NCBI GenBank assembly: GCA_977020255.1
Contig: CDROCS010001660.1
Location: forward strand, 1-64,000
DNA length: 64,000 nucleotides
Source of the DNA: Obrimoposthia wandeli
Taxonomy: Eukaryota
Direction: 5' to 3'
Position numbers and translations under genes: made by a program
Part shown: piece by piece, positions 5,106 through 25,422 of the stretch
How the letters are laid out: each line of letters opens with the position of its first letter
Numbering within the stretch: position 1 is the first letter of the stretch
The notes under the pieces: generated by a model
What the model saw: the letters and a program-made list of their open reading frames with translations, nothing else
The model's database searches: none
Told to the model about the DNA's origin: nothing

Positions 5106-5404
5106 TACTATATGTTCTGATTTTAGAATTATAATTTTAAAAATATATTATACTTTAATTTTAAAAAGATATATTTGAAATTATTTCAGTAAACGATCAA
5201 AGATTTTTTTATAAATTTCAGTAAAGATGTTATCTTAAAAAAATTAAATGCATTTATTAGTTATTTATTTATTAAATCATACTAGAGATATAAACTTATT
5301 TGTTAAAGAAAAATATTTCCTTTAATTGAATATGATTTGATTAAAAATATTTCAAATTTCTATAAATAGGTTCAATTTTATTTACCTCTTCATTATTTAT
5401 TGAA

Positions 5405-5715: not shown

Positions 5716-6128
5716 ATAAAAATATTTTAATTTTGATTTTATTTGTTACAATTATTTATAGTGTTATATTATTGACTAAATATTTGACATAACCATACTA
5801 AATATAAACAATTTTATATATAAGGTTTTTATAAGATGGATGATAATATAAATTGGAATAAATTATAAATTAAATTATCTCCAGATTTAATGGAAGATTA
5901 TAAAGAAAAAAAATTGCAAATTGTTGCGGATAAAATATGCAATTTACTTTCAAACTATTTAGGAATAATTAAAATTTATTTTAATATTCGTAGGTTAATT
6001 AAAAATATATAGCAATCTTAACGAGAAAAAATGAATACAGATAATTTTGATATTTTAATAAATTTTGTTTATTGGTTTCTATTTTAATTGGTTATAAACA
6101 AAAGGATTTGCGTCATATTTAGGTAATT

Positions 6129-6250
6129 ATGAAAGAATATATCATTGCCTTTGAGGCTTTCATTAATAAAAATGGAGATTATATTATAAAATAATTATGT
6201 ATTATGGATATATGCGATGTTTTTCATCCTTTGCATTTCGTATTTCATGT
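6129..6250 (+). pseudogene. 5' fragment of DEDD-like exonuclease-fold gene
   Basis: MKEYIIAFEAFINKNGDYIIK*LCIMDICDVFHPLHF matches the 5' end of 21845-22333(-) and breaks off at about 6250. Confidence 0.7.
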
Positions 6251-6419
6251 AAATAGGTGGAAGGATGGAGTCTAGGCCACTTGAGCTTCCTCCCCTGTGT
6301 GCGCACACCAACAAATGCATGTGCACGAACACCAAGAAGTGATTGTGGATTCTCACAAAGGTGGATTGCCACACCATAAGGGTCTTGCTGAGTACATTGT
6401 TGTGATTGTCAAAATATTG

Positions 6420-7103
6420 TGCGTTTAATAATGTTATGGTAATCAACAAGTTAAGGGTCAGATTGGGAACAAACTTGTTAATTTTATTACATGGTTGTAT
6501 TTTTCTTTCAAATTTGAGTTCAACCATACCTTTATGGTCATGCATTAGTTAAGGTGTCCTGATAAAAATAAAAATACTTGTAATTTCAAAAAAATAATAT
6601 TTTTTAATTCAAATTTGTGCCAATTTAATTTGTTAGATTTTGTTAAAGTTAAACAAATTTTAATTTAACAGGTTTTTAGATCTCTTCTTACCTACTACAT
6701 GTCCACTGTCAAACCCAAATTGAAGAGCTTCTCTATCAGATCCAAATATAATTTGAATAGGTTTTAAAAAATGTTTTGATCGATTTTTAAATATGACTTT
6801 GTTTTTTTCATATATTACTTTCACTTTTTTATCTATACAATTGTAATAGAATTTTCTTTTACTATCAAACCCAATCATAACTTCAATTGATTTTTCATGA
6901 TCAACTTCTTTTGTAAACGAAATATGCGAGTTTTTTCTGATAGTAATTGGAGAATAATAAAAGGAAAATTCTGTTAAAGCCGCTTCCCATTCTCCTTGGA
7001 GATTTATAGGATTTTCCCAATCGATAATAAAGCTACTAGCGTAATTATCTGGTTGAGTCTTCGGACATCCGTTACTAGGTAAAACCATATACAGAGACTT
7101 CAT
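6420..7103 (-). pseudogene. Minor capsid protein (penton), 3'-truncated
   Basis: N-terminus MKSLYMVLPSN...DNYASSFIIDWENPINLQGEWEAALTEF is the typical Polinton penton start. The frame is broken after 6660 and ends at a junction near 6420. Confidence 0.8.
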
Positions 7104-8128
7104 ATTATATTAGATGCTGATATCCAAGTTGGGTCTGAATAACCATGCCATTTAACAAAGTATTGTTTATGTTTACCTGTACCCTTAGATTTTAATCTTT
7201 TTTGAATACGGAAAACGATAGGTTTATTTGATATTACTTGTAGTTCTTGCTCGTAAAATTTACCGTGAACGATATTATTGTCAGCATCTTTAATAGTATA
7301 CATTATTGGATTACTCTTTTGATCAATTTTACTTATACAAAATATTTCATCGCTCCAATTCTGATCAAAGTTTTTAATAAATGGAGTAGAGCTAATTTTC
7401 GAAATTCGAACATATTCGTTTTTCTTATATTTAGCTTTTTTAATTTTATCTTTTTTATTCCTGTTCATCCAAATGTCCATAGAGTTTTTATTAGTAACAT
7501 CAACAGGTCTCATTCCCTTGAGACCTCTATGTTCAGAGTGATTATATGCATGTATTATTTTAGGTAAAACTTGGATCCATTTTTTATTTCCTTCTTTTGT
7601 GAAATACTTTTTTATTCGATCTCTTAGAGTACGATTAAATCTTTCTACTACTGCTGCTTTGTATTGTGAAAACACAGAGTAATGATTTATATTATTTTGT
7701 TTAAATAATGATTGAACTTGCTTATTATAATATTCTTTTCCTAAATCAGTTTGCACATTTTGCAGAGTGTCCTCTTTTAATATTTCTGTAATGGCTTCAA
7801 GCATAGCTATTGAAGACTTTGCTTTAACAGGAATTGCACTAGCAAACCTGCTAAATGCATTAATGCATGTTAAAATATATCGGTATCTCTTATTAATAGA
7901 AGAATATGGAATTATCTCCATCAAATCAATTTGCCATAAATTATTAGGACCGCTGGTTTTGTATGCTCTAGTTGGAAATCTTCTTCTCATCGGCTTGTTC
8001 AGACTGTAGGCTAACTGGTCGCTCAGCCATTTCTGCGTTTTCTTGTAATTTTGTTTTGTTCTTTTTGCTAATTTTGAAACTCCTGTGTAGTCAATTGGAT
8101 CTTTTGGATTGAACCATATCTTCTCCAT
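7100..8128 (-). CDS. Retroviral-like (rve) integrase with C-terminal chromodomain
   Basis: DDE core WQIDL / VQTDLGKEY / VERFNRTLR; C-terminal YFVKWHGY...TWI chromo motif. First ATG at 8128 (MEKIWFNP); ORF intact. Confidence 0.95.
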   Translation of the reverse strand: MEKIWFNPKDPIDYTGVSKLAKRTKQNYKKTQKWLSDQLAYSLNKPMRRRFPTRAYKTSGPNNLWQIDLMEIIPYSSINKRYRYILTCINAFSRFASAIPVKAKSSIAMLEAITEILKEDTLQNVQTDLGKEYYNKQVQSLFKQNNINHYSVFSQYKAAVVERFNRTLRDRIKKYFTKEGNKKWIQVLPKIIHAYNHSEHRGLKGMRPVDVTNKNSMDIWMNRNKKDKIKKAKYKKNEYVRISKISSTPFIKNFDQNWSDEIFCISKIDQKSNPIMYTIKDADNNIVHGKFYEQELQVISNKPIVFRIQKRLKSKGTGKHKQYFVKWHGYSDPTWISASNII

Positions 8129-8214
8129 TACAACAATTTGAATAGAAAGAAAATTTAAGTATAGGTAAAGAAGGGCTAGCACCCATATCTTTAGCTGATT
8201 TTAGAAATAATTGT

Positions 8215-8544: not shown

Positions 8545-9331
8545 TTTAATAAAAAAGATTCAATTTAAATATTGTTTATATTCGAAGCCATTTAAGTTTT
8601 TTTTTATTTTTAACTACAGATTTGATTAATTTTTTCACTTCTTTTTTCTTAATGATTCTTTTTTTTGATTTCTTAGATTTTACTTTACGTTTTACTATCA
8701 ACTTTGTAAAAGGCATTGCGAATTTATTTTTATAATTGTTCTCTATTTGTTTATAAACAGTTACTCCCTTAGAATTAAATATGTCTGTTAAAACACGTAA
8801 ATCATCTGGGCAAGCTTGTGTAAAGTCAATAAATATATACCCATGTGCTTGTTTAGCAGCATCGTGGAATGAATCAACTAGAAAGTTCTTATTTTGAGGA
8901 AATGCCTGTCTGGCCACAAAATCAACAACTGTTTGATCTCTAGGATTTTTAAATAAAACTAAGTAATGTACATTAAGATTTCTTGTTCTATGGTGACCTC
9001 CTTGGTGAAACAGATTTTGAGTGATAAATATAACTGTTACTTCACGATGTCTTGCAATCTTTGTAAATAAATTATTAAAGTCCGATTCCTTGTTAGCCTC
9101 CTCATACAAATCATCAATTATTATTACATCTTCTTTTTTCAACCTTTCATACCAATTTGCATCAAATCCTTCAATAAATTGTATTTCCTCAACTTGCAAA
9201 CTTCTGTTTTGGTTAATACGCTTTCCCCTCCTCCACCATGATGCCAATAAATATTTTTGAAACTAGATTTGAAAAGAGATTCATTTTGCAACAATTTACA
9301 GACGAAATGTGTCTTTCCACTTCCACTAGGG

Positions 9332-10179
9332 CAGTGGTGGGATTCAAGGGTTCGCACCGGTTCGCGCGAACCGGTTCCTAAAAATATAAAAGTTCGCAGA
9401 ACCGCCTGAACCAGTTCCTGGACTACCTAAGTTTGTTCAAAATAAGAAATATATTAACCTTCCTCGCCAAAGCCTGTTAGATTCTATTATAAAAAATATG
9501 AAACTAAGATTGATGGATTCTGATGAAATAAAAGCAAGCAAAAACTCCAAAGAAATTGATAACAAAATTCACTGTTTAGTAAACATCGTTAGCCCTGAAT
9601 CATGGGATATTGATGAAGTTGTTGTACCGTGGAAACAAGCTGAAGAAAAATTACCCGGATTCTATAAGCAGTTTCACCATAAAATATGCGTTAACGATTT
9701 CCGTGACTATGTAGAAAATGTTATAGAAAACCGTCCCAATCAAGATGTTCCTTCTACAATACAAAAAGCAAAAAATATTATTAATACAATTGCTTTGAGT
9801 TCTGCTGAAGCGGAACGCGGATTTTCAGTTATGAATGTGATATATAGCGATAAAAGGAATCGTCTTGAAGTTCAAAATGTCGCAAATCTTATGGTAATAA
9901 AGTTAATTGGTCTTCCTCTTAATTTATGGGATTCTATGGATTCTGTTAAAACGTGGCTAAGAAAACACCACACAGCTGATGATAAAAGAGTGAAGCATTC
10001 ATCTAATAGTTCTTATAATTCTAATGAATTATCAATCTGGAAATATTTGGAATATGATGGTAAATAAAATGATTAATTGGACTTGTTTATTATTAACCAC
10101 ACACGGAAAAATTGATTTAATTCCACATCAACCGGTAAATGAGCGAACCGGTTGCTAAACAGTTTGAATCCCACCACTG
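9332..10179 (+). mobile_element. Non-autonomous hAT DNA transposon (848 bp)
   Basis: 16-bp TIRs CAGTGGTGGGATTCAA / TTGAATCCCACCACTG and 8-bp TSD CACTAGGG (9324-9331, 10180-10187); carries a transposase C-terminal fragment. Confidence 0.95.
9498..10067 (+). CDS. hAT transposase C-terminal (dimerisation-domain) fragment, 189 aa
   Basis: IALSSAEAERGFSVMNVIYSDKRNRL matches the hATC motif (P.SSA..ER.FS...I....RNRL). Confidence 0.8.
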   Translation: MKLRLMDSDEIKASKNSKEIDNKIHCLVNIVSPESWDIDEVVVPWKQAEEKLPGFYKQFHHKICVNDFRDYVENVIENRPNQDVPSTIQKAKNIINTIALSSAEAERGFSVMNVIYSDKRNRLEVQNVANLMVIKLIGLPLNLWDSMDSVKTWLRKHHTADDKRVKHSSNSSYNSNELSIWKYLEYDGK

Positions 10180-10258
10180 CACTAGGGCCAACTATTTGAA
10201 ATACAGCATTATTATTTAGCTCCATTTAGCTCTTTCATTTTTAATATTGTTTATATTA

Positions 10259-10559: not shown

Positions 10560-11059
10560 TTATAGAAAAGATAACAAGATGTAATAAGATATATTTTCTA
10601 AAATCAAATCAACAATGTCTGGATAATCAAAAATTTTCAATCCCAATATCATAACTTTACCACTAGAAAATATATTCACACATAGCGGTTTAAACTTCAA
10701 TTAACTGAGAGCAGGAAATATTTCTGGTTCAAACATGCATTCTTCTTTCATTTTCTCTGCAGTTTTAAAAAGATTTATCTGTTTCCCGAGATTAGCCGAA
10801 ATCGTGATTGATTGTATTGCAGTGATTTGAATTCCAAATGGTAAATTGAACCCAAGCATTGGTATTTTGCATCCCATAACACGACAATTTCCTAAAGAAT
10901 TCAATATGAAAATAAAATAACAAACTAACCTGTAGGAAAAATAACAACTGTGAAATTGTCAAACTTTTTTACATATTGTCTCGGCTTCCATTCATTGAAT
11001 GGTAAGTACGAATCATCATCTTCTGTTCTACCTTTATAATTTATATTTACGAGTTTCAT
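10560..11059 (-). pseudogene. TATA-binding-protein-like gene, two exons, one in-frame stop
   Basis: Exon 1 11059-10930, 38-nt GT-AG intron 10929-10892, exon 2 10891-10560. Translation has two TBP half-repeats: MKLVNINY...TVVIFPTGNCRVMGCK and IQSITISANLG...FEPEIFPAL*LKFKPLCVNIFSSGKVMILGLK. TAA at 10701-10703. Confidence 0.8.
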
Positions 11060-11272
11060 TAGACTGAAATTGTATTCTGTAAAATCTTCTTTATATATGT
11101 CTGAACCTGCTTTTTTATTGCACGTTTCTTGTAATTATCTTGCAAACCTATTATAATTGGATGATATATTTCTTCCAATCAATTTTGATTTTTAATATAG
11201 ATTTAGTCCAATCAAATTCAATGCTTTAGTTATATTAACCAATGAGATTCATTCGTCTTTGTTAGAAATTAG

Positions 11273-11280
11273 TATAAAAG
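11273..11280 (+). promoter_or_regulatory. TATA box (TATAAAAG) with upstream CCAAT motifs in the divergent promoter region
   Basis: TATAAAAG at 11273-11280, CCAAT at 11239-11243, ATG at 11311. The opposite strand has TATATAAA at 11097-11090 before the TBP-like ATG. Confidence 0.55.
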
Positions 11281-11310
11281 AATGCGCCATCGGAGGACAA
11301 ATCACAGTAA

Positions 11311-11787
11311 ATGCATTCATATCAAAGACAATTATCAACGATGGACGATAGCCAACGGGTATTAAGCGATGACGAAGAAATGTTTGAAGAATCGGATAAG
11401 GATATGTATGAAGAAGTGAAACAATATTTCAAATACAAAGTCAGATTCTTGAAGAAGGCTCAACTGATTGCTTTAGTAAATCCTGTGACAATTGAAAGAA
11501 GAAAGTTCAGCTACTATCTGTCAGGTATTCAAAAACCTGATTTTCAATATCTTAAACAGAAAGTTGAAAAGGCAGTTCCGAATTTTACTTTCAATAAGAA
11601 CGAATTTTATATACGAGGAGCCGATGAAGCATTTCTAGATGACTATGGAAGATATGTTGATATTGATGCGTTTCCGAAAAAGAAGCAATGGACTCTAACA
11701 ATTCGACTTTATGGTTACAAGAAAGATGAAATGGGAACAAAGTTGCCTATGTGGAAAATTGAACGTGCTCATATTTCTATGTTTTAA
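11311..11787 (+). CDS. Unknown Polinton protein, paralogue 1
   Basis: Intact 158-aa ORF with acidic N-terminus; shares NPV.I and W...IRL.GY...P.W....A motifs with 11931-12335. Confidence 0.65.
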   Translation: MHSYQRQLSTMDDSQRVLSDDEEMFEESDKDMYEEVKQYFKYKVRFLKKAQLIALVNPVTIERRKFSYYLSGIQKPDFQYLKQKVEKAVPNFTFNKNEFYIRGADEAFLDDYGRYVDIDAFPKKKQWTLTIRLYGYKKDEMGTKLPMWKIERAHISMF

Positions 11788-11930
11788 CTTTTTGCGTGTA
11801 ATAAATTGTAATCGGTTCACTGTGTTTCTTTCATTTGCCAATTAATAATCAGTTTTATTTGTATCTTATTTGTATCTTATATGTATTTTTTTTATAAACA
11901 TTGTTTTTTAATCAGTTTCCTTATTTTAGA

Positions 11931-12335
11931 ATGGATAATAGATGTGTAGCAAATTTTTATTATCCAGAAAGAATTTCAAAAGGAAAACTATGTAATATAT
12001 TAAAGAGGCATCAAATTATACGAGTTATGAATCCTGTGAAAATATCAAAAGTGCAGAATAAATATCTCATCGAAATTTTAACAACAACTGATATTGATCA
12101 ATTGAAAAATATTTTGGGATTTTACATTCCTGATTATGTATATGAAGGAAATTGTTTCCAGCTTGAAACTGATCCCGGTCTGGATTTTAAAGATGATCTA
12201 GGATATTTGATTGCTCCAATTCTAGATGAAGAACTATGGAATATCTCAATACGTCTCAATGGATATTTTGCTGATGACTGGAAAATGCAGCCTCTCTGGA
12301 CTTTGAGTGAAGCCAATATGTTGTTTTATGTTTAA
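11931..12335 (+). CDS. Unknown Polinton protein, paralogue 2
   Basis: ATG at 11931, TATAAA at 11893; motifs IIRVMNPVKISK and WNISIRLNGY...PLWTLSEA are shared with paralogue 1. Confidence 0.65.
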   Translation: MDNRCVANFYYPERISKGKLCNILKRHQIIRVMNPVKISKVQNKYLIEILTTTDIDQLKNILGFYIPDYVYEGNCFQLETDPGLDFKDDLGYLIAPILDEELWNISIRLNGYFADDWKMQPLWTLSEANMLFYV

Positions 12336-12642
12336 TAAATATTTTGAAATATAATTTTGTCTCGCATTTTGTTTTTTCTCCTCTAAATTATATAGATCTG
12401 ACCGATTTTTCTCCTCTAAATTCTAAAACTGACATAGATATTTAACATGTAGTAATTTATTAATCTAAAATCTTTCTTAAAAATAGTAGTAATATTTGAA
12501 ATCTCGTCTGCGAAAAGCCGCCGGGGTCAATATGGATTCTCGTGGTCTTCTCTAACCACTTTTGAGATTCGGGGTAAAATTTTTAAAAAATGTGGTGGGG
12601 GGGGGGTACCCCCCTTCCTTTCCCTATTGGGTGGAATGGAGA

Positions 12643-12746
12643 CACACATACACGAAATTTCACTCCACACACATGCTCGGTTTTAAAGGACAGTAGGGGG
12701 GTGGAGGGGGTGTGTGGATTAGACCGGACACATCCACCTACTATCT
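12643..12746 (+). repeat. Polinton TIR copy in an internal position
   Basis: CACGAAATTTCACTCCACACACATGC.CGGTTTTAAAGGACAG...GTGTGGATTAGACCGGACACATCCA..TACT is nearly identical to 25340-25422 and in the same orientation. Confidence 0.85.
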
Positions 12747-13037
12747 GGCTGGCTTAGAACATTAGGTAGATTTGCCTTTCCTCTTTTAAAGAGACTCGGA
12801 CGATTTATATCAAAATTAGGAAAGGATTACCTTTCATCTAAGGACAATAAACTAATACCAACTTTTAAGAAGCATGCGCTTGATGAACTTGATAATGTTT
12901 TACCTGAAGTTGCTAATTTGATTAGAAAACGTAAATCAAATTAAAGCCAAGGAGGTAGTGGATTTAAAAGTAAAAAGAAGCAAAAAATCAATATAAACAA
13001 ACGTAAGAAAGTTGAAGGAACAATATTTGCAAAATGA
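12747..13037 (+). pseudogene. 3' part of a Polinton core (pVII/pX-like) gene, 5'-truncated at the TIR junction
   Basis: GWLRTLGRFAFPLLKRLG...RKRKSN*SQGGSGFKSKKK...TIFAK; its TGA overlaps the MCP ATG. Confidence 0.7.
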
Positions 13038-14263
13038 GTTGCGCCAAAACTGAATTGTGTCTTTTTGATAAACCACTTCCACAAGTAGTTGTAGATAATG
13101 CTTCCTTTGAAGAAATATTTCTAGTTAACTCAGTTTCAGGAACCACTTTAACCGATTTAGAATTTAATATTAATGGTTCCAATAGCGAGTATTTAGATTT
13201 GAATTATACTTTGCTTTATGTTCAAATAAAAGTATTAAATCGGGATAGCACTAATTTAGATGAAAATGCTGATGTAACACCTATAAATTATCTCTTTAAT
13301 TCTTTATTTAGTGATGCCATTGTTACTCTTAATAATGTCAAAATTGAAGGTGGAAATTCTTCCTATGCTCATAAAGCTTTGATTGAAAGTCTTTTGAATT
13401 ATAGTACTAATACTCAAAATACCAATTTGGCAACCATTGGTTATGATAAAACGGTCGCAACTCGCAAAGAATAGATTGCGGGTTCTAAAGCTTACGAAAT
13501 GTGTGGGTCTTTGAGATTGAATTTCTTTGAACAACCGAAATATTTATTTTTCGGTGTTAATGTACATCTTCGTTTGAAACGTAATAAATGGAATTTTTCT
13601 TTGATAAGCTCAGACGTTCTAAAACCTAGACTTTATATTTTGGATGCAAAATTGTATGTCCGAAGAGTTAAAACCGAGCAATCAGTTTTAATGGCACATA
13701 ATATAGGAATTGAAATAAACAATGCTTGTTATCCTATAAGAGAAACTAAACTTATATCCTACTCTTTAGGTACGGGTACACAAGCTTTTAATAAGGATCA
13801 AATTTTTGGTGATGTAAGATTACCGAAATTCATTTTAATTTCTTTTCAAAAAACTGCAAAGTATCTAGGAAATTATACGACAGATGCAACTCAATTTGAC
13901 AATCTTAATGTAGGTTCAGTGACACTTTCAAGAAATACTGATTATCGCGAAACATATAAAACAGATTTCGAAGGTGACGCTTATGCTTTGGCTTATACGC
14001 AATCTATTATTCTGAATTTGGGCCAACTAGATAAAAATATAAACAATGGTATTTCTTTCACTGACTTTAAAAACAGCTGCCCGTTCTTCACATTTGTTTT
14101 GGCACCAGACTTTGATATAAACCAATGCCAACTACCAAAGGATGGAAATTTACGACTAGAAATTAAGTTCAATGCAGCTTTAACAAATCCTACTACGATG
14201 CTTATTTACGGAGTGTTTGATTCCGAAATACAAATCAATAAAAACAGAACTGTCATATTATAG
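13034..14263 (+). pseudogene. Major capsid protein (double jelly-roll, PY) with one in-frame TAG
   Basis: Starts MSCAKTELCLFDKP (C.KSEL.LF motif). The two ORF-track pieces are in the same frame, separated by TAG at 13472-13474. Ends GNLRLEIKFNAAL...MLIYGVFDSEIQI. Confidence 0.9.
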
Positions 14264-14264
14264 A

Positions 14265-14645
14265 ATGAAGTAAGACATTTTTTAAATTTATATTTATTAA
14301 TTTTTATTTAGTTCAGTACAAGTACAAGAATCACCAGAGAAGGTCCTTGGTGATAAATTCAATGGAGTTTATCCTATTGATATGATTCCATTTTTTCAAT
14401 CTGGAGGTTACATTATCAATACTCATACTTCGAATTTACCAGGAGAACATTGGATAGCTATTTATGTTAGAGAGTGGACAATACATGTATTTGATCCACT
14501 TGCAATGTATTATCCACACAAACTTGTTTCAACTATTCAAAAAGGACGAAGAAGAGTATTTTACAACAAGATACAATATCAGGATCCTGCGACGAGAAAC
14601 TGTGGACATTTATGTATTTTATGGTTATCGTTGCAAAACGATTAG
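14265..14645 (+). CDS. Adenain-like cysteine protease, two exons
   Basis: ATG AA, then 42-nt intron (14270-14311, GTAAG...TTTAG), giving MNSVQ...FNGVYPIDMIP. Catalytic motifs PGEHW, FDPL, YQD and NCGHLC are intact. Confidence 0.9.
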
Positions 14646-17600
14646 TGTGTTATAAAAATAAATATTTTTAATGTTTCATTTTGAATTATTTTTTTAAATC
14701 CATAAAAATATAAGGGTAAAATAATAAAAGACATAAGACGAAATTTTTGTTTAATACATTTATTAATCACAACATCACAATGAGATATGTCAAAGATAAG
14801 GTCCATCCTAAAAAAGTATTGAAATAACAAATAAGTTAGAGTCTAGGTGCCATAGGGATCTAAAATTTAAAAAAACTAAACTAAAAAAATCAAAAAATGA
14901 AAAACCGTTTAAATTCTGAAGTGTCCATAAGCCAGGCTAGCGTTCTTTTCTACCCAAAAGCGGTTGTCGTCATTACTACTCAAAGCGATTTTGGTTGATT
15001 TATGGGAATACAGTTGATGGGCTCTTGAAATAAATCTAGTTTGCTCAACGCTTTCAATACACCCAGTATCATAAACTTTCCGGTAGGCCTCATGTGTAAG
15101 ATTGTTTCTTCTCACACCCTTTGCTCTCATTGAACATGTATTATTAGATGCATGTAAACTGTAGCATTTAGGGCGTAGGAAAATACAATCATCATACGAA
15201 ACCTGTCCCTCGCTTTCATCCTTAAATTTCCCGATAATATCCTTTAAACTCATAGAATGTAGAGGATGGTTAGCGGGATATTTATGGGTATCTAATAAGT
15301 TGTCCCTAAACATTGCCGGTAATAATTGATTATTTAAACTAACATTTTTACATTCTAAAAAGAAAGAGTCAGTGTCCCCAGCTGCGATTTGGATCTCACA
15401 ATCGAATTCTCGTCGATATTTATCTAATTCTATGTATTGAAGCTCGTACATTCTGAGTTTAGAAATGATTAAAACCGTTTGACCTATATAACTCGGTCGA
15501 TCGAGACAAATACTCTGTTTTTCTAATAACACTGCTACCAAGTCATCTGCAATTGTAAAACTACGCTTGAAGTTGTACTTGCTAGTATATGTTATTAGTT
15601 TACGCTCATCATTGCAAAACCGTAGACAAATACGTTTCCGCAAGTCCTCTACAATTTTTCCAAAGAGATTATTACTTTTTAACTTGTAAAAATCCCGATC
15701 GAATTTGCTAGTGGCCAAATTACGTTTTCTAGAATTCTTCTCAATATAGTCTTTAAACACAAAGTTTTGACTGAAGCTTATAGCCCGATGAATTCGAGTA
15801 ACTTTCGCTCCCAACTTTAAGTAGAATTGAAGAAGCCGCTAATGCACAACATAATTCAACTTGTCTTCATGGGTTAACAATAATTTCTTAACCTTTGATT
15901 TAGGTGGACAGGTGCTACTGGAAGATCATCTAATTTATCATGCACATTGGAAGGGATTGTTAAGTCAACCTCAACCAAATAGCCGATGTCTGATGAAACT
16001 GTATCTACAGTAGCCAAATCTGTCATCAACTTATTCAACTCTTCCTCATCATAAACCCACTTAAAGTTGGCATGAGGTAGAGGTTGAGTAAGCGCCCACC
16101 CATACAAATTATTAATGTCGATGTACAGAATCTCCGTGGATTGATCTTTGACAACATGATGTTTGTTGACAAAAGTCATTCCACCGCGTATACCATAATC
16201 ATACATTTGATACATCGCGGGATCTTGCAGTAACTCGATATTAATTTTAAGAGTTTTTATTGCTGTTGCCCATGAAAAACCAGGTAAACTAAAGAAATGC
16301 ATAGGATCTAGCCCATCTTCTGCCAAAGACTTTACACGAAGGGACTCAAAAAAATCAGCTAAAAGATAAATGTCTAATTTCATATAATAAAGCATATATT
16401 CTAAAAGATTTCGACAATTATTCGCCCAAAATGTACGGGCCTCATTATAGTCTTGAAGACTTACACTTTCAAATTCAGTTATGGGTGGGATTTCAGTTGT
16501 ATTTTCTAAATCTGCAAAGGTTTTCGCAAATTTATACGGAAAAATCCCTTATCATTAACCGAAGCTTGGAACACTGACTGTGTGATTGGCCATGCATTTA
16601 AAGATGCCGTTAAATATTTTAAAGACCCGCTCAAAAACTGCAGAGAATCTATGAATCTTAAACTGCACAATTCAGTATATGCAGTTAAAGATAAATATTT
16701 CTCTGAAGTTTGAGGTATACATGAAATTTCCCAAGAGCTTAATGTACCCAACGTATATTTAAGTATATGATGCAAATCATATCCTTTGAGGTTATGAAAC
16801 ACGATGGGAATTCGTGGTTTTTTAGGGAGACGACGGCCAAGGTTACAGAGGTTGCACGCCGCTCCCAAGTATCGCCCCGTAACATGATCGTGATCTCTGA
16901 CTAACTTAGACTGGGTTCCACACAAATAACATAATCTACAAGAATTAAAATTAACCCAGTCTATGCCTGTCATGATCATTGCTTGATGAGCATTAAGATC
17001 ATACCACGGTTTGACAATTGTTGTTCCTAATTCTTCTAATTTTAACATAAAATCTAAAATACAATTTGGACCGGAAAATTTATGATACTGTGTAATATTG
17101 GGGCCTAAGAATAGTAGTCCTGCCGAAGCCAGTAGGTGAATACTCTCATACTGGTCGTGCAATGCTAAAATTGACTCAAAATCTGCATACACCCTGAATT
17201 CCACGGGTATGCATTTTGCTTAATCCCTGAATTTTAAATCCTTGTCCTTAGGCATGCTGTATAGCATATTGTCATCAGGATTTAGTGAACATAATGTCAG
17301 ATGTTTGCTGTAAGAGAGCTCGGATCGGAATCCATGCAAACATCTATGACATCACTTACACCTTATCCTAACCGGTAAGGCTCCATTATTTAAATTTAGA
17401 AGACGATCTAAATTGGGAATTGCAGCATAATGGAATTTTTTATTTTGTTCGAGCAAAATTAAGTTGACCTGAGTACCCTCATTTTTGCTCCTATAAATTA
17501 CATCTACAAAAGGATTTTTAAAAATTTCTTCATCTGTTACATTAACTCGGATATCAGTATTATATTTGTTATTTATTTATTTATTTATTTATCAAACATT

Positions 17601-17673
17601 TATTAATGTGAACGCGCAATCAATTTCTCAAAGGCCCCATATGGGCCTCTTCTACTTTACGTAGGTCCGGGTC

Positions 17674-18192
17674 TCAATCCCAGTACAGTTGCTGCTGGTC
17701 CTCAGTAGCAGTAACAGTAGCTGCTTGGGGTCTCGGTTTCGTCATTGGAACTTTGAGTAGGTCTGCGTAATTTTTCAGTACTCTTACGTCATCGCCGGGT
17801 ACAGTTTTGGGCCCCTCGGCAGTCTCGATTGTAGCGGGGCGACCTTTTCGGCCATTACCCGTAACCGACCGGAGGTCGGTTTTCGTGTACGATTTCTCCT
17901 CCTGTCCATGTCGACGTTTCGAACTCTGACCACCACTATTCAAATCTCCCAACAAATCTGTTCGATTGTTGATAAAAGGTCTCTTTTCGGCATACGAATC
18001 CGCTGCTTTCTCTAGACTAGTGTTGTTCTTTGCCATTACAAATTTGTCGATAATACCAGACAGTATCTTTGCACACTCCTCGTTGACATCGTAGTTTCGC
18101 AGTAACCCAAAAATATCGTCTTGGGCCCCCTGCAGGAAGTTATAATTACTCCCGTTGTTTACCTGCGCTTCATTATTTCTTTTCCTGACCAT
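17674..18192 (-). CDS. 172-aa ORF inside the retrotransposon insertion, downstream of the RLE ORF; function unknown (ORF1/gag-like N-terminus?)
   Basis: Intact ATG-initiated, GC-richer ORF; hydrophilic, with SYA / NYADLLK patches. Confidence 0.5.
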   Translation of the reverse strand: MVRKRNNEAQVNNGSNYNFLQGAQDDIFGLLRNYDVNEECAKILSGIIDKFVMAKNNTSLEKAADSYAEKRPFINNRTDLLGDLNSGGQSSKRRHGQEEKSYTKTDLRSVTGNGRKGRPATIETAEGPKTVPGDDVRVLKNYADLLKVPMTKPRPQAATVTATEDQQQLYWD

Positions 18193-18317
18193 GTCGAAGT
18201 TTTCAGATCTTATTATTTTTATTCAGATATTATTAAACAATTTTTTTTTGTTTGTTTGTTTTATGGATCATTGACAAAAGGCTTATTTTCGGCACACGAA
18301 TCTGCTGTTGTTTGTTG

Positions 18318-18688
18318 TTGTTGGTTGTTGGTTGTTGGTTGTTGGTTGTTGGTTGGTGGTTGGTGGTTGGTGGTTGGTGGTTGTTGGTTGTTGGTTGTTG
18401 GTTGTTGGTTGTTGGTTGTTGGTTGTTGGTTGTTGGTTGTTGGTTGTTGGTTGTTGGTTGTTGGTTGTTGGTTGTTGGTTGTTGGTTGTTGGTTGTTGTT
18501 TGTTGGTTGTTGGTTGTTGGTTGTTGGTTGTTGGTTGTTGGTTGTTGGTTGTTGGTTGTTGGTTGTTGGTTGTTGGTTGTTGGTTGTTGGTTGTTGGTTG
18601 TTGGTAGTTGGTTGTTGGTTGTTGGTTGTTGGTTGTTGGTTGTTGGTTGTTGGTTGTTGGTTGTTGATTGTTGGTTGTTGGTTGTTGT
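18318..18688. repeat. (GGTTGTT)n heptamer tract, about 50 units
   Basis: Directly visible; a few variant units (GGTGGTT, GGTAGTT, GATTGTT). Confidence 0.98.
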
Positions 18689-18734
18689 TATAGTTTGTTT
18701 TTTTTTTTTGTTTTTTTTGAAGGGTCTTTTTTTA

Positions 18735-19946
18735 TTTTACGTAGGTCCAGGTCTCAATCTTCTCCAATTCCTCGGCTGACAACTTATCCAGGATCATAGT
18801 TGTATGACTCGAGAATTTAGCCCACGAGGCCGCCGTATGTTCGATGGTTTTCAGAGTTAGTCGGATCTTGATATCTTTGATCTACTTTGCTTTAAAACCA
18901 GCATTTGCAAAGATCCGGTTATTGATTTCAGGCCAGTAGCCGAGGGTCCCGATCCTTAGCGCGTAGAAATGCACGAGTTTTTCTGGGTGGCGGGTCTTTA
19001 GCATTTCAACGAGCTCCGCGTATTTGGACACAGTTTCGGCGAGCCTCAGATCAAATGACATGTCAGAGTCAAACGGGATCTTGATCTCTATCAGCATCAC
19101 CTTATAGTCAGTCTCGATCGTTATGTCTGGTCGTGGTCTGCGGCTGTTTCCGTTATCGTCTACACATAAGTGGGTCAGCTCTTGAGTTACCTGTCCTGGA
19201 TATTTTAGTTCCATTACCCTTGCAGTTTCCCGGCAGATCATGTCGTGTCTTTGAATTCATAGTTTTGCTATGAGCTTACAACCAACGATTGCATGGCTCA
19301 TCGACTCTCGCTCCTGGCATCCCTTCCTGCATGGGGCGATCATATCAGTCCTGGGGCCTCGTACCTTCATGCGCCCGCACCTTGCGCGGTGGATGAAGAA
19401 CCACCCTCGGTACATCAGACGGCCCTTCATGATGGCCCGGTTAATGTCTGTGTCTGATGTGGCGTTCTTATATATTGGACTCGCTAGCTTGTCTTCGAGA
19501 ACCTTGTGACTCTGGCTGAGTTGCACAATGTTATGCATCGCCTTACTTATGGCCTTGTAGGTCTTGAACTGCATGAGAAAACTGCCTCCATGGGCGCTGG
19601 TTATGAAAAGATTGAGTGCTTGGTCCTTCTCAATCAGTTTTAGTTTGATATTTAGCTCATTCTGGAATTTCTTGGCCGCGTGGAACAGCCGCGTCCAAAG
19701 TCCCGTATCTTTCATGTTAGTGGCTAGGGTCCCTTCATTAAACCCCTGAACTGCTTCGGAGAAGGTCATTGGCGGATTAGGAAACTTCAATTGTTCGGTG
19801 AGCTCACGCCTGCATAGGTTCTTCAGGTCCCTGTCGCGTACATTTGCCATCTTTATCGTCTGGATGATGGACTGGATGTTATATTCGTCCTCAATCCTTG
19901 TCAGCCCAAGACCTCCACGGTCCTTGTGCCCATAGAGAACTCCGAT
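18735..19946 (-). pseudogene. RT C-terminus + CCHC-type knuckle + RLE endonuclease remnant
   Basis: ORF-track pieces 19257-20024 (after the PolB junction) and 18882-19241; read-through ends ...EKIETWTYVK*. Confidence 0.85.
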
Positions 19947-21844
19947 AATACTCAAGTTATTAAGATGTTCAAATCTTGATATCGCAGTTAATTTAACAGG
20001 AAAATATATTCCATGATACTGCAATTCATTTAAAAAATAGGTATATTTACTAACACGCTATCTATGCTCAGTAATTACACCCATTTTGAGGATGGCCAAC
20101 ACCCTATACAGAAAGCAAAGGTTATCACTGTTTTGTATGTTAACAATGGAACGTGAAAGTTGAAGAGATCTAGGTGAAGGAATGTATGAACTCCCCGAAA
20201 GATATATCATGTCAGTGAACTGTGTTAGAACAAAGCTAACATCGTGAATTCTAACTAGAGTCCATCCACTACTTAACTCGCTATAATTAGAAATCTTTTC
20301 ATCTAGGTTTCTTCCAATTTCAGTTACAAAATTATCATAGCAAATAGTTGCTTTATGTGAAATTACCCAAGTTTTAGTTTCCTCATTGACATTTTTAAAC
20401 TGCACTGTTGCGCAAAATTGAACCTTAGCCTGTCCTAATTTAGTCACTTCTGATTTTAAAAGATTTTCAATATTTGAATCTACACCTACGTTTAATAAAA
20501 TTTCATTTCCTAATGGCACCTTAACTATAACATATTTATTATTTAGGTGATACTCTATAGTAGCACCGTTTTCTCTATGTTTTTTGGGTGGAACCTTATT
20601 AAGAAATTGGCCTCGCATCTTTCTTCCTACAGTCGTTGACAAATCTCCCCCTAATTGAACGGGAAGACAACTATTTATATTAACAGTTGAGGTGGAAGGT
20701 GCTGCTATTGGACATGCTGCCGATGTTGAGGCAATCGCAGCTGATGTAGTAGATGCTGCTGTTGTAAGTGCTGCCGCAGTTGTAGATGCTGCATTTGGAG
20801 TAGTAGCCGACATTGCCGATGAAGAAGCGGCTGTTGTAGAGGATGATGCTGCTGAAAAAAATATATATTAAAAAATAAATATATTTTTAAATATTATTAC
20901 CTCTAAGACGTGCTAACATCGATGTAGGCACTCGTGGTGGGGGAGGCATAGCTGTCGTAGTGGATGACGGCTGTATCACGGTATTTCCTGAATAAAAATA
21001 AAAATAAAATATATATAATTACAATTTAAAAAAAGAATCTGAAAAATAATAATAAAAAATACCTAATGAAGGCAATACAACTGGAGCTGGAATGAAGTCC
21101 TCTTCATTGATGGAATCCATCCAGCTGTCGTCCGTTATCTCGACGAAATCGGATTCCTCGATGGTCTCCAACCAGGAGTTATCGCTCCATTGATCCATCT
21201 CGAAATCTGACTGGGATATGTCATTCATCCACTCATTGTTATTCATTTGAGTGGATGGGGCAGAATCAGGATACGGGAGACCAATCGCAGGACCGTAAAC
21301 GGGTTGATCGACTGCAACTGGAATTGGAGAAGGTGCGGCCTGCGAATCGCGCACCAATTGCACGATATCCCTCTTCTTGTTGTTGGCCGTGAAACAGGAT
21401 AGATGAGCTCGATGTTCACCGAAGAAGTCTCGAAACTCCTTCTCCTCCATTGTTCTGCAGAATGGGCAGACGAAGAAGTGAAGCCCGCGAGACTTTGTCC
21501 GATAGTAGGCGGACATTATCTCCATGCAGGTCTCTCCTCCATGCGGAGCCGAAGCACCACAATATGCTGGAAACAGGATACAAGTAATCTGAAATAATAA
21601 ATATTAATAATGAAATAATAAGTATAGATTCTTACCATAGTCATTATTTCAAATAGTCGGGGATTTTAATGAAGAAAGTGTTTGCTTATATACTAAAATT
21701 TATGCACACATGCTCTTTTCCTATTCGATTAAAAAAAATTGAGAAGGATTGTTTATCTGTTAAATGGTCGAATTTTTTTTTTTTATTCCTCCAATCAAAA
21801 GAATTATTTGTAATTGAATGAAAATTATGAATTAGAAGAATTGT

Positions 21845-22333
21845 TTATCTACATGTCAAGTAATAATAAAATAGACTTAAACATTTTTTATATGCGCAAT
21901 GGTCACCATGATTACGATATGGACAGCAAATATTTCGTGGAATTTTTAATAGATGATCACGTGAAATATTTAAAGTATTCAATTTCAATTTGGGAAAATA
22001 TTTTTTTAAAGTCTTATATTTTTTGCCATCCATTTCATCTAAAACATAAAAAATTCCATTTTCTATATCAAAATTAGATGTTATTGTATCGAAAATACAT
22101 ATTTCACAAAAAGCCTTATGTCCTTCTTTCCATTTTAATAAATGAAAGTAATTAGTTAGATATAAATTAGTAAATTATTTCTTATAATCTAAACTTTTAA
22201 ACGGGATATCTATTTGAAATATGAAATGCAAAGGATGAAAAACGTCGCATACATCCATAATACATAATTCTTTTATAATATAATCACCATTTTTGTTAAT
22301 GAAAGCCTCAAAATCTATGATATATTCCTGCAT
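21845..22333 (-). pseudogene. DEDD-like exonuclease-fold Polinton protein with C-terminal Cys/His cluster, one stop
   Basis: MQEYIIDFEAF...YIIKELC...KK*...CCPYRNHGDHCAYKKC; 163 codons; TATAAA 31 nt upstream. Confidence 0.6.
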
Positions 22334-22455
22334 AATTATCTAAATTTGCAGCAAATCCGGTTGTTTATAACGAAAAAAATCATTAATCAAAAATTTATTA
22401 AAATAACAAAGTACTCAGTCTTTCATGTTAAGATTGGTATATATTGTCAATTCTC

Positions 22456-22818
22456 CTATGTAACATAATCAATAAAGACAAAATAATAATCAAAAATTAA
22501 TTTTTTTGTAGAAGGACCCTCTTCTGGTTTAATCTGGAGGATTCTCTTTCTTGCTGCTCGACGATTATCCTTCATATCTTCTCTTCTTTTTTCATCCACC
22601 TTCTTCTTTTCCATTTCGATCTTCTTATTCCACTCAACGATTCGACGTCGTTCTGCTAGCCTCCTATCTTGTATCTCCACCCGATGATTCCACTCGGTCG
22701 CGACAGCAGCATACAGATTCTGATTGAGGATCCTCTTTCTTAAGTCCCCTTTCTTCTCATTTATTCTGATGTTTGCTTCAATCTTCGTTACCAGACTCTT
22801 CATTTTAATGAATTCCAT
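22456..22818 (-). CDS. Basic coiled-coil protein, unknown function
   Basis: Intact 120-aa K/R/E-rich ORF with a homologue at 5405-5715; TATATATA upstream. Confidence 0.6.
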   Translation of the reverse strand: MEFIKMKSLVTKIEANIRINEKKGDLRKRILNQNLYAAVATEWNHRVEIQDRRLAERRRIVEWNKKIEMEKKKVDEKRREDMKDNRRAARKRILQIKPEEGPSTKKLIFDYYFVFIDYVT

Positions 22819-23035
22819 TTTTTAATTATGAAGAGGTTAATAAATTTGAACCTATATATATAAATTTAAGATATTTTTTAATCCAATTATGTGATATATT
22901 TTATTTATCAAATGAGAGTTTAATAAATCTATAACTTATCATTGCATTTAAATCTAATAAACTTAAAGATAGTATTTTAATATTTATAATTAAAATTTTT
23001 TTTAAAAATAAATATTAAGAAGAAAACATATGAAA

Positions 23036-24944
23036 TTAATTTTTATAAATTATATTCTTAAACATCTTTACGAAGTCATCATTGGGATCATCCGGATCGA
23101 AATCCCTCCGACTAAGTATTAATGGAGAAAGCGGTACTGGTTCATTCTTCTTTGGCCTGCCCGGTTTCTTTTTCGGCTTCACCGGTTTGTTTGTAGCAAT
23201 TGTCCTTCCCTCAGGTTTTGGTAATATTTGCCGCAACTTTTTGGGAGGAGGTGCAGCCGATGTTGATGCTCCGACATAGAAGCAGTAGCCTTCCTCTTCC
23301 GCGGAGCTTTCTTCTGTTTCTCCTTCTTCTCACGCTGAAGCTGGCGTGAGACGGCATCTTGTTGCCCTCGCAGATCTGGAAGCATTGCCGGTGTATCCAG
23401 TTCCACCAGGAATTCATCCAATCCAGCTTCATCCCAGGCCCTCTTCAAGTTCTGGCTGGTTGTTGGAGATGCAGTCTCCCAAGCCCTGGCCAAATTTGAT
23501 GTCTCCTGTAGGCGTCGTTGACTTGATGGCGGACTAATCTCAATCGGTGAGACTGGGATCCTCTCGTATAGAATTGGCCCGTCGTCCACTGGAGATGGGA
23601 GAATCTCCTGCCGTCCAATCACCGTCTCAGAATAATGGCCAATTGAGGTGGAACATTTTCTCGAGCGCTTCGTCTTCTTCACCTCTGCTCGCTTCGTCCG
23701 TTTCCTCGGGAAAGGAGTAATTTCTCCCCATTTCTCCTCAATTATCTGGACGGGTTCCTGCAAAATATTAATAAAATTTAAACATATAAATATTTTACCT
23801 CAATGATGGGCAGGTTAGCCTGTTTCACCAACTTTACCTTCTTCCGAGTGTGGGTTTTGACCCGATGGCGTTGCGGTTTCTTAACTGCCGCTTGCTTCCT
23901 ATCCACCGGTTGAATATGCGTCGCCTCTTCGAGAATGTTCTCTATCTATGTGAATTATTAAATTTAATATCTAAATAATTTACCTTAAAATTATCTGGAG
24001 ACGCTAGGTATCGGAGCTGACTCCTTGGCAGCTCATGGCTGCATTGACTCGCCAAGTACTGCGGTTCAATCAGCCTCTCCACCGTGGTCACTGACGGTGC
24101 CAAATCCAGTTGAAGTTTCTGAAAATGAAATTAAAAAACATTTAAAATAAATGATGTCTAACCTCATTCGTCGCTTTTATTCTCCTAACAGGAGATTTCG
24201 GCCTTTTGAATGGTTCAGGCGTTGTATTATCCACTTTCGGAGTAGCAGAGGGAGTGATACCATCCCAATCGTCGGTGAACAGGTGCCACTCGTCTTCGTC
24301 CAATTATGCCACCAGAGATCACGATCATGTTACGGGGCGATACTTGGGAGCGGCGTGCAACCTCTGTAACCTTGGCCGTCGTCTCCTTAAAAAACCACGA
24401 ATTCCCATCGTGTTATCATAATTCTTGGCTCCAGGGGCTCCGATATTTGGCTGTATCCATTTGTCGATGAATGGAGTCAAGTCCTCTTCCCCATCCGACG
24501 GAACGTCATCGGTGAACAACTCCTCGTCTGAGTCTGGTGCGAGGACTTTCTCCGGCTGAGACAGCGGGATCAATTTCCATGGCCAGGATCTCCTTGCTGC
24601 TACTGCCGAAGTTGCTGGACGAACAGCTTCTATGTTTTGCCTGGGAGTACAGTCTCCCCAATTCTCCATCGAATCCTGACTTGTCAGGTCAATATATTGG
24701 GATCTCTGTACCCCGCCTCTCACGTCCATTGGTTCTTCTCTTGGAGTTGAGCTGGCCTTGGGGCTTCTTCTTCCAACAGGTCCGCTCTTGCTGCTGCTTC
24801 TCCTTCGCTCACCACCGATGAGTCTTGACTATGTAAGTCAATGTATTGCGACGGTGGTGGCGTTCGCTGCTGCACTGGAGAGAGATCCCCATAGAGTTGA
24901 ACCTCCGTTTCTTCGTCTAGGTCAACGTTTTTGTAGAATGGCAT
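23036..24944 (-). pseudogene. Spliced low-complexity (P/S/R/K, acidic N-terminus) TIR-proximal gene
   Basis: ATG 24944 (MPFYKNVDL). Phase-0 introns 24162-24119 (44 nt), 23983-23946 (38 nt) and 23798-23758 (41 nt) give open internal exons. Disrupted by frameshifts and an inserted PolB fragment. Confidence 0.75.
24313..24421 (+). repeat. Inverted copy of about 105 bp of the PolB gene (source about 16790-16897)
   Basis: CAGAGATCACGATCATGTTACGGGGCGATAC...CCCATCGTGTT is nearly identical to the minus-strand PolB segment RDHDHVTGRYLGAACNLCN...PIV. Confidence 0.92.
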
Positions 24945-25331
24945 TGTTGATTTATGAAAAATAATGAACGGATGTGTCTTTATATACACAAACATCTTAC
25001 TAACCCTCTTTTATTGTCCAATGAGAGCCTCTTATTCAAATAATTTATTTTTTGTAATGTTTTTCGTGCCTGGAGATCGACTTTCATCGGGTGGTGTATG
25101 TTAGGGTCTTGGGTATGACACGGGTCGTCTACATGTGTCGTCACCAGCACCCACCACCAACCAACGACTTACACCCATCACCCATCGACTTTCACCCAAC
25201 ACCCATCGACTTACACCCACCGTCCAACACCCATCACTCATCACCCAAGGAAGTCTGTGATATACACCCGTCCCGAGCCTTTCGCGCCAAAAGACGCAAA
25301 AAAATCTGTAGGAATCTGAAATTTCACTCCA

Positions 25332-25422
25332 CACACCTACACGAAATTTCACTCCACACACATGCACGGTTTTAAAGGACAGGAGGAGGGGGTGTGGATT
25401 AGACCGGACACATCCATTTACT
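25332..25422 (+). repeat. Polinton terminal inverted repeat (outer end of the PolB arm)
   Basis: Matches 12643-12746; ends ...CCGGACACATCCATTTACT (5'-AGTA on the minus strand). Confidence 0.85.

What the first reader, a model, noticed from the sequence alone, without database searches (positions are those of the whole stretch)
10560..24944. Polinton genes peppered with tiny, frame-preserving spliceosomal introns
Seen: at least eight GT-AG introns. These are TBP-like (38 nt), protease (42 nt, after ATG AA), PolB (47, 75, 49 nt) and the TIR-proximal gene (44, 38, 41 nt). Each restores or maintains an open frame and recovers expected motifs, such as the protease MNS.Q start and TBP PTG-N. The TIR-proximal gene introns recur at the same positions in the diverged copy at 2.8-5.1 kb, so they predate that divergence. 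The integrase, MCP and ATPase appear intron-free. Polinton core genes are usually described as single-exon, so an intron-rich lineage is unusual and would be missed by ORF-based annotation.
Basis: partly seen in the sequence, partly recalled or inferred. Interest (0 to 1): 0.72.

Follow-up and report, generated by a model that had tools for sequence, protein, structure and literature searches.

The report
Polinton lineage with an inherited intron
A branch of virus-like jumping DNA elements (Polintons), whose core genes are normally uninterrupted, carries a tiny host-style intron at the start of its virion-protease gene, so this gene apparently needs the host's splicing machinery and is mis-read by simple gene finders.

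Summary
All eight GT-AG segments exist with the stated lengths. The strongest is the 42-nt protease intron. It sits at the same site (inside codon 2) in 9 of 51 related metagenome loci, with different sequences and lengths of 38-43 nt; the other 42 have a contiguous start. In a capsid tree the 9 loci plus the window form one clade (SH-aLRT 100; about seven lineages, 48-60% identical), and their neighbouring genes are open, so the intron belongs to undecayed elements. The TBP intron is an exact insert relative to intronless relatives.

Corrections: the region is two decayed Polinton copies, not one (TBP/ATPase/integrase in one, capsid/protease/PolB in the other). The three PolB introns lie in the variable N-terminal extension, not the polymerase. 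Only the protease intron is shown to be lineage-wide; a near-complete relative has just that one, so 'intron-rich lineage' is overstated. Six of eight lengths are not multiples of three: they restore frame only if spliced. No RNA evidence was available. The host is probably a flatworm with 40-nt introns. I found no report of a conserved spliceosomal intron in a Polinton core gene.

The parts
14265..14645 (+). Polinton maturation protease gene of copy A, two exons; start codon 1 nt after the MCP stop
   Evidence: Weak Peptidase_C5 hit; 1432 relatives at E<=0.001; spacing
14270..14311 (+). Protease intron, 42 nt, phase 2, inside codon 2; retained reading is Met-Lys-stop; shared by the whole clade
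10560..11059 (-). TBP-like gene of copy B, two exons; premature stop at 10701-10703
   Evidence: Pfam TBP; aligns to intact L017 TBP, which matches solved TBPs at E 3e-11
10892..10929 (-). TBP intron, 38 nt, phase 1, inside the conserved IF-x-x-G-K/N motif; absent from L017 and L021
14909..21644 (-). Protein-primed PolB gene of copy A: Cys-rich N-terminal extension, terminal-protein region, endonuclease VII-like insert, polymerase; broken by frameshifts near 20.0, 16.5 and 15.9 kb, stops and a 2.4-kb insertion
21589..21635 (-). PolB intron 1, 47 nt, phase 0, directly after an ATG that aligns with the start of relative P0287
20988..21062 (-). PolB intron 2, 75 nt, phase 1, in the low-complexity linker; absent from L017
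20852..20900 (-). PolB intron 3, 49 nt, phase 1, in the low-complexity linker; absent from L017
23050..24944 (-). TIR-proximal gene of copy A (acidic, low complexity, no family found; frameshifted, with a 109-nt PolB-derived insert at 24313-24421); 3' end approximate
24119..24162 (-). TIR-proximal gene intron 1, 44 nt, phase 0; orthologue in copy B 3534-3580 (47 nt)
23946..23983 (-). TIR-proximal gene intron 2, 38 nt, phase 0; copy B keeps the donor (3645) but has no canonical in-frame acceptor
23758..23798 (-). TIR-proximal gene intron 3, 41 nt, phase 0; orthologue in copy B 3854-3899 (46 nt), repeated at 4068-4114
13034..14263 (+). Major capsid protein gene of copy A, no intron, internal stop at 13472-13474
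   Evidence: 58% identical over all 403 residues to L017 MCP; double-jelly-roll clusters in the Atlas
12743..12944 (+). 3' part of the small ORF preceding MCP (label PX recalled), cut at its 5' side by the end of copy B
12642..12742 (-). Terminal repeat end of copy B, 86% identical to the end of copy A
25331..25422 (+). Terminal repeat end of copy A
7100..8188 (-). Retroviral-like integrase with chromodomain, copy B, no intron, open
   Evidence: Pfam rve and Chromo
8576..10230 (-). Packaging ATPase gene of copy B, no intron seen, frameshifted and split by an 849-nt hAT-type insertion (9331-10179); 5' end approximate
   Evidence: L017 orthologue hits Pox_A32
6660..7109 (-). Truncated minor-capsid-like gene of copy B (label recalled from motif and gene order)
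2714..6255 (+). Right part of copy B: 67-81% identical inverted counterpart of 22207-25050, with the second TIR-proximal gene
21860..22333 (-). Broken small gene found in most relatives (DEDD-exonuclease-like, label recalled; no Pfam hit); no intron here, but a 43-nt intron in L020
17560..19950 (-). Insertion in PolB: 3' fragment of an R2-type non-LTR retrotransposon plus microsatellite; limits approximate
55570..55609 (-). Host comparison: 40-nt AT-rich GT-AG intron in a CHCHD2/10-like host gene

Best explanation
These are ordinary major-spliceosome (GT-AG) introns of the host's own small size, carried by active Polintons of one clade. One intron was gained once, inside codon 2 of the maturation-protease gene, in the ancestor of the clade and has been inherited since. 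Further introns were gained or kept patchily in accessory or variable regions (TBP-like gene, PolB N-terminal extension, TIR-proximal gene, the exonuclease-like gene of L020). How it works: the element is transcribed in the host nucleus and spliced by the host spliceosome. Unspliced protease RNA reads Met-Lys-stop, so full-length protease needs splicing. SHOWN: positions, splice ends, phases, exact-insert status against intronless homologues, presence in otherwise open elements, single clade. INFERRED: actual splicing, nuclear Pol II transcription, flatworm host. Persistence is most simply a ratchet: a DNA-to-DNA replicating element rarely makes the cDNA needed for precise intron loss (general knowledge, untested here). 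A benefit to expression is possible but not shown.
For: Same site, donor and acceptor in 9 of 51 related loci, with lengths 38-43 nt (5 of 9 not multiples of 3) and a stop if retained in 9 of 9. L016 and L017 have 100% identical MCP, yet their introns differ by 2 nt (41 vs 39), a change only a spliced segment tolerates. The 10 intron-bearing MCP rows form one clade: SH-aLRT 100, 1 change, 0 of 500 shuffles as low; identities 48-60%. No internal stops in the MCP matches of these 9 loci. Independent protein set: of 11 rows in the window's protease clade, 4 begin with intron-like read-through and 5 are N-truncated. L017 TBP aligns across the 38-nt segment with no residue missing. L017 and P0287 PolB are single ORFs matching both sides of window introns 2-3, which lie in different genomic frames. 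Orthologous introns in two copies. Host intron of like size and composition. L020 has two more such introns.
Against: No transcript evidence; no RNA holder is listed and other copies in the same organism were not examined. P0136 falls in the protease clade (quick tree, SH-aLRT 86) with an intact contiguous N-terminus: loss, spliced origin or misplacement cannot be told apart. The TBP intron and PolB introns 2 and 3 were each seen in one decayed copy only, so late gain in that copy is not excluded. The L020 intron after the PolB start is not shown to be at a homologous site, since that N-terminus is about 25 residues shorter. Intron 2 of the TIR-proximal gene lacks a canonical in-frame acceptor in copy B. 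Trees are quick-mode, midpoint-rooted, no bootstrap. Hosts of the related loci are unknown.
Confidence: 0.88

Rival explanations
1. The protease intron is kept by selection as a control point: splicing gates production of the virion-maturation protease from a capsid-protease transcription unit, or 5'-proximal introns raise expression or shield the RNA from host silencing. This adds to the best explanation rather than replacing it.
For: Retained across about seven lineages at 48-60% capsid identity. Retained reading is Met-Lys-stop in 10 of 10, and the start lies within -1 to 2 nt of the MCP stop in 9 of 10. Several introns lie at or near gene starts. Planarian Polintons are piRNA targets (PMC8532177, passages). 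The adenovirus hexon-then-protease unit is spliced (recalled).
Against: 42 of 51 related loci do without it. The Met-Lys-stop reading follows automatically from the donor consensus. Tight MCP-protease spacing is also visible in intronless relatives. Neutral persistence explains the pattern. No expression data.
Confidence: 0.3
2. The segments are insertions by an intron-generating transposon (introner) or AT-rich indels that hit this locus after integration and decay.
For: Both copies are decayed and carry other insertions. Introners are reported in dinoflagellate Polinton-like elements (PMC11957031, passages). 6 of 8 upstream exons end in AG, and 3 of 8 show AG|G at both ends, as a short duplication would.
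Against: The protease intron is in open elements of a whole clade. Intron interiors are not copies of one family: 3 of 171 pairs exceed z=3, two being the orthologous A/B pairs. TIR-gene introns predate the A/B split. It stays possible only for TBP and PolB introns 2 and 3.
Confidence: 0.07
3. The acceptors serve mainly for spliced-leader trans-splicing or for joining to distant upstream leaders (flatworm leaders end in AUG; recalled), and the local donors are secondary.
For: Host is probably a flatworm. Two PolB introns fall directly after an ATG in phase 0, where a leader-supplied AUG would be in frame.
Against: The protease acceptor is phase 2, out of frame for a leader AUG. A consensus donor is conserved 38-43 nt upstream in 10 of 10. 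Internal introns cannot be explained this way.
Confidence: 0.04

Closest known systems
Animal Polintons/Mavericks (adintoviruses): vertebrate and nematode elements
   Same: Protein-primed PolB, rve integrase, A32-like ATPase, adenovirus-like protease, major and minor capsid genes, terminal repeats. A TBP-like accessory gene is named in a figure legend of PMC8502044 (passage).
   Different: Intact vertebrate elements have 'intronless ORFs' and 'no introns were observed' (PMC8097293, passages); the C. plicata core genes are 'intronless' (10.1101/2022.07.12.499685, passages). Here a core gene has a clade-wide intron.
Nematode Maverick cargo genes (wasp, KRMA)
   Same: Intron-containing genes next to a terminal repeat (10.1101/2022.07.12.499685, passages); the TIR-proximal gene here may be of this kind.
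   Different: Those are captured host-type genes. The protease, PolB and TBP introns here interrupt viral-type genes whose relatives are intronless.
Introner-bearing Polinton-like elements of dinoflagellates
   Same: Spliceosomal intron-like inserts within Polinton-like proviruses (PMC11957031, abstract and passages).
   Different: Those are recognisable transposon families, mostly acquired after integration. Here the introns are unrelated short AT-rich sequences, one of them ancestral to a clade.
Group I introns in cryptophyte Polinton-like viruses
   Same: Introns inside PLV genes near MCP (PMC12220804, passage).
   Different: Those are 309-376-nt self-splicing RNAs; these are 38-75-nt GT-AG introns.
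Adenovirus late unit (pVI-hexon-protease), recalled
   Same: Same gene order (small amphipathic ORF, major capsid, protease) and dependence on host splicing.
   Different: Adenovirus joins a distant leader to alternative acceptors; here a tiny local intron splits codon 2. No integrase in adenoviruses. Analogy only, not tested.

Membership tests
Polinton/Maverick | Protein-primed family B DNA polymerase | tested here: met
   Pfam DNA_pol_B_2; colinear with the 1304-aa ORF of L017; broken in this copy
Polinton/Maverick | Retroviral-like integrase | tested here: met
   Pfam rve E 1e-10 plus Chromo, in copy B
Polinton/Maverick | Packaging ATPase, double-jelly-roll capsid, adenovirus-like protease | tested here: met
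   L017 orthologue Pox_A32 matches the window ATPase; Atlas DJR clusters; Peptidase_C5 weak, E 0.036, with G-E-H-W motif
Polinton/Maverick | Terminal inverted repeats at both ends of one element | tested here: inconclusive
   One terminal-repeat end per copy (12642-12742, 25331-25422; 86% alike, both reading AGTA inward); no partner end in the window
Polinton/Maverick | 6-bp target-site duplication | tested here: inconclusive
   The hexamers flanking each end do not recur at a matching opposite end; both copies are truncated
Polinton/Maverick | Intronless core genes (usual description, not a formal criterion) | tested here: not met
   Protease intron in the window and 9 of 51 related loci; PolB 5' introns
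Major (U2-type) spliceosomal intron | GT donor with GTRAG-like consensus and AG acceptor on the sense strand | tested here: met
   8 of 8 in the window GT..AG, 0 of 8 antisense; 9 of 9 in related protease genes
Major (U2-type) spliceosomal intron | Removal joins open, homologous coding sequence in phase | tested here: met
   Phase arithmetic; TBP, protease and PolB against intronless homologues. No homologue was found for the TIR-proximal gene
Major (U2-type) spliceosomal intron | Ends conserved while interior sequence and length drift | tested here: met
   one acceptor not kept in decayed copy B
Major (U2-type) spliceosomal intron | Excision from RNA (junction reads, lariat) | not testable with these tools
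   No RNA holder listed
Introner (intron-generating transposon) | Many near-identical copies of the intron sequence | tested here: not met
   3 of 171 pairs with z>3, two of them orthologous A/B pairs; only the window and fetched loci were compared, no whole genome is held
Group I/II self-splicing intron | Several hundred nt with a conserved RNA core | tested here: not met
   38-75 nt and 6-18% GC; judged by size, no Rfam search run

The most novel reading that the evidence does not exclude
A flatworm-associated Polinton clade has made host splicing an obligatory, selected step in virion maturation: a codon-2 intron gates the protease, and repeated gains of 5'-proximal introns let the element pass as host DNA and lessen silencing. 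It would be an intermediate between intronless Polintons and the splicing-dependent small DNA viruses of animals, and a natural system in which intron gains can be dated on a tree.
Probability: 0.3. Interest if true: 0.82.

Novelty: new variant of a known kind. Interest (0 to 1): 0.66.

Why it matters
Polinton and Polinton-like virus surveys assume uninterrupted genes; one large survey states that these viruses 'do not contain introns' and uses a prokaryotic gene caller (PMC10120064, passage). This clade breaks the assumption in a core gene, and the effect is visible: 9 of the 10 database proteases nearest the window's have wrong or missing N-termini. A conserved spliceosomal intron implies nuclear transcription and host splicing, which bears on how Polintons express genes and whether they need a cytoplasmic helper virus. 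Because intronless outgroups are known, the gains are polarised, which makes intron gain, a rarely observed process, testable in a compact genome.

Tried and rejected
No whole genome is held, so other copies in the host could not be aligned. Sequencing runs: no RNA holder listed; four runs of one sample and a small, unlaid share in one metagenome run, which says nothing on expression or habitat. Variation among copies in those runs stays unexamined. Viral contigs: integrase, MCP, clade MCP alignment and PolB alignment found no relative; the protease alignment gave 12 weak loci (E about 5e-4), not used. Genome contigs: nothing. The PDB search with TBP exon 1 alone gave nothing useful. No Pfam family for the TIR-proximal gene or PolB exon 2. 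A 14-residue insert in L014 MCP is coding, not an intron; breaks in L025 and L026 MCP look like frameshifts. The frame changes in catalytic PolB are not introns: homologue residues run on with no extra DNA. The careful protease tree did not finish, so the quick tree was used. Earlier-findings look-ups returned nothing. A single element with an inversion was rejected: it cannot explain two 67-81% identical right arms and two 86% identical ends. Literature: 9 searches found no report of a conserved spliceosomal intron in a Polinton core gene. I read only keyword passages of 15 papers, no supplements. The original Polinton/Maverick descriptions and Repbase entries were not seen and might already annotate exons.
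Full report
Setting. The window is about 30% GC. A CHCHD2/10-like host gene at 55.2-55.6 kb has trematodes as most of its best named hits (50-61% identity; the two best hits are unnamed) among 187 proteins found, so the host is probably a flatworm; this is a rough placement. That gene has a 40-nt AT-rich GT-AG intron at 55570-55609. No whole genome is held, and no RNA run is listed for 10.5-18.2 kb.

Anatomy. The stretch 2.7-25.4 kb holds two decayed Polinton copies back to back. Copy B reads leftward from a terminal-repeat end at 12742: two ORFs, TBP-like gene, small ORF, ATPase, small basic ORF, integrase and a truncated minor capsid gene, then, after a large deletion, a 67-81% identical counterpart of 22207-25050. 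Copy A reads rightward from 12743: a 5'-cut small ORF, MCP and protease, converging with PolB, then three upstream genes and a terminal-repeat end at 25422, 86% like that of B. The 14.2-kb relative L017 shows the uninterrupted order TBP, ORF, ATPase, ORFs, integrase, two minor capsid genes, small ORF, MCP, protease, exonuclease-like gene and opposed PolB, all open. In the window, MCP and TBP have internal stops, the ATPase is frameshifted and split by an 849-nt hAT-type element, and PolB has frameshifts and a 2.4-kb insertion of an R2-type retrotransposon fragment.

The eight segments. All are present with the stated lengths, GT..AG on the coding strand, 6-18% GC against 33-53% in the flanks. 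My first automatic scan listed 6 of the 8; its thresholds missed the TBP intron and TIR intron 1. Exons between them are open and in phase. Only the 42- and 75-nt segments are multiples of three, and both contain in-frame stops. Composition-preserving shuffles give such ends in frame in 1.0-4.2% of trials per segment, and 0 of 8 read GT..AG antisense. Because the segments were chosen for their ends, this overstates significance. AT-rich islands are common in the AT-rich core genes and are not introns there.

Protease intron. A search of 1.84 billion representatives gave 1432 relatives at E<=0.001, 150 listed; I inspected the N-termini of the best 61 plus P0001. In a quick tree of 61 rows (two proteins over 200 aa left out) the window sits in a group of 11 (SH-aLRT 86): 4 start with hydrophobic intron-like read-through, 5 start at a downstream codon, and 1 (P0136) has a normal contiguous start. 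A scan of JGI metagenomes with the alignment of 16 proteases gave 51 loci. Nine (L013-L020, L024) have ATG AA, then GT, 38-43 AT-rich bases and AG at the same site. Forty-one have an in-frame ATG at the expected place by script, and L023 by eye. Five of the nine lengths are not multiples of three, and L016 and L017, identical in MCP, differ by 2 nt in the intron. In an MCP tree of 43 rows (9 of the 51 loci lacked a long enough MCP match; the 12 weak viral loci are absent) the 10 intron-bearing rows form one clade: SH-aLRT 100, one change, 0 of 500 shuffles as low. They fall into about seven lineages at 48-60% identity; near-duplicates (L015/L024, L016/L017, L018/L019) are not independent. Their MCP matches have no internal stops. 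The retained reading is Met-Lys-stop in 10 of 10.

Other introns. TBP: the intact 149-aa L017 protein (Pfam TBP E 5e-18; solved TBPs E 3e-11) aligns to both window exons with no residue missing at the 38-nt segment; L021 is also uninterrupted. PolB: L017 (1304 aa) and P0287 (1219 aa) are single ORFs whose Cys-rich N-termini match window exon 2 and whose terminal-protein regions match exon 4, which lies in another genomic frame. So introns 2 and 3 are needed to link them, and they are absent from those relatives. P0287 begins where the ATG before intron 1 lies. L020 has a 51-nt intron right after its PolB start (3639-3689; my note said 52) and a 43-nt intron in the exonuclease-like gene (3029-3071); the first is not shown to be homologous to the window's. 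TIR-proximal gene: the three donors align between copies A and B; introns 1 and 3 keep both ends with changed length (44/47, 41/46), while intron 2 lacks a canonical in-frame acceptor in B. Intron interiors are unrelated except orthologous pairs (3 of 171 pairs z>3), which argues against one introner family.

Mechanism. Most likely the elements are transcribed in the nucleus and spliced by the host's major spliceosome (inferred). One ancestral gain in the protease was followed by scattered gains or retentions in accessory and variable regions. Persistence may be neutral, since precise loss needs a cDNA that a DNA-replicating element seldom makes (general knowledge). Selection for gating or expression (about 0.3) is not excluded, but 42 of 51 relatives lack the intron. 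Late introner insertion (0.07) remains possible only for sites seen once; leader trans-splicing (0.04) does not fit the phase-2 protease acceptor.

Comparison with print. I saw keyword passages only, of 15 papers, and no supplements. Vertebrate Mavericks: intronless (PMC8097293). Nematode core genes intronless, cargo genes with introns (10.1101/2022.07.12.499685). Endogenous viruses of protists 'do not contain introns' (PMC10120064). Introners in dinoflagellate elements (PMC11957031). Group I introns in cryptophyte PLVs (PMC12220804). TBP-like genes noted (PMC8502044). Planarian Polintons silenced by PIWI (PMC8532177). Nothing relevant in passages of PMC10748475, PMC11296320, PMC9004415, 10.1101/2024.03.25.586562, PMC11244446, 10.64898/2026.07.28.741278, 10.1101/809541 and 10.1101/2022.07.28.501842. 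Nine searches showed no report of a conserved spliceosomal intron in a Polinton core gene; subscription papers and Repbase were out of reach. The labels PX, minor capsid and DEDD-like, the adenovirus analogy and the flatworm leader are recalled, not from a call.

Verdict. Real feature and a new variant of a known kind: a Polinton clade defined by an inherited intron in a core gene, with the window's copies at the intron-rich end. Confidence in spliceosomal introns 0.88; interest 0.66, limited by the lack of RNA evidence, decayed copies and possible prior annotation in Repbase.

Noticed in passing
window 30042-44533: Tandem array of about 16 near-identical units of about 913 nt; unit content not identified.
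   Followed up: no
window 9331-10179 and 27919-28767: Two 100% identical, oppositely oriented 849-nt hAT-type elements (Dimer_Tnp_hAT); one splits the ATPase gene near its P-loop, so it moved recently.
   Followed up: partly
window 17560-19950: 3' fragment of an R2-type retrotransposon (E 6e-6), a 7-nt microsatellite and an unidentified 182-aa ORF, inserted in PolB.
   Followed up: partly
window 24313-24421: 109 nt copied in inverted orientation from PolB 16792-16899 (98% identical) into the TIR-proximal gene.
   Followed up: partly
window 3835-4500: In copy B an exon-plus-intron unit of the TIR-proximal gene is tandemly repeated (about 70% identity), multiplying intron 3: intron gain by exon duplication.
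   Followed up: partly
window 6250-6710: After the truncated minor capsid gene lies an intron-like AT-rich stretch and about 300 nt of unidentified sequence before homology with copy A resumes.
   Followed up: no
window 984-1637: Intronless Tctex-1-like ORF of 217 codons.
   Followed up: no
window 46100-47050 and 48500-52500: By eye, a decayed elongation-factor-2-like pseudogene and remnants of a BEL/Pao-type LTR retrotransposon (motifs recalled, not tested).
   Followed up: no
L017 222-722 and 5610-7687: The intact relative carries a ubiquitin-conjugating E2 gene and two tandem minor-capsid-like genes.
   Followed up: partly
L020 2900-3939: Two further introns, and PolB lies downstream of the exonuclease-like gene on the same strand, as in the window, whereas L014 and L017 have PolB opposed: gene order varies within the clade.
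   Followed up: partly
window 21063-21588: PolB of this clade begins with a Cys-rich (C-x2-C) module shared with L017, L020 and P0287 and without a Pfam match.
   Followed up: partly
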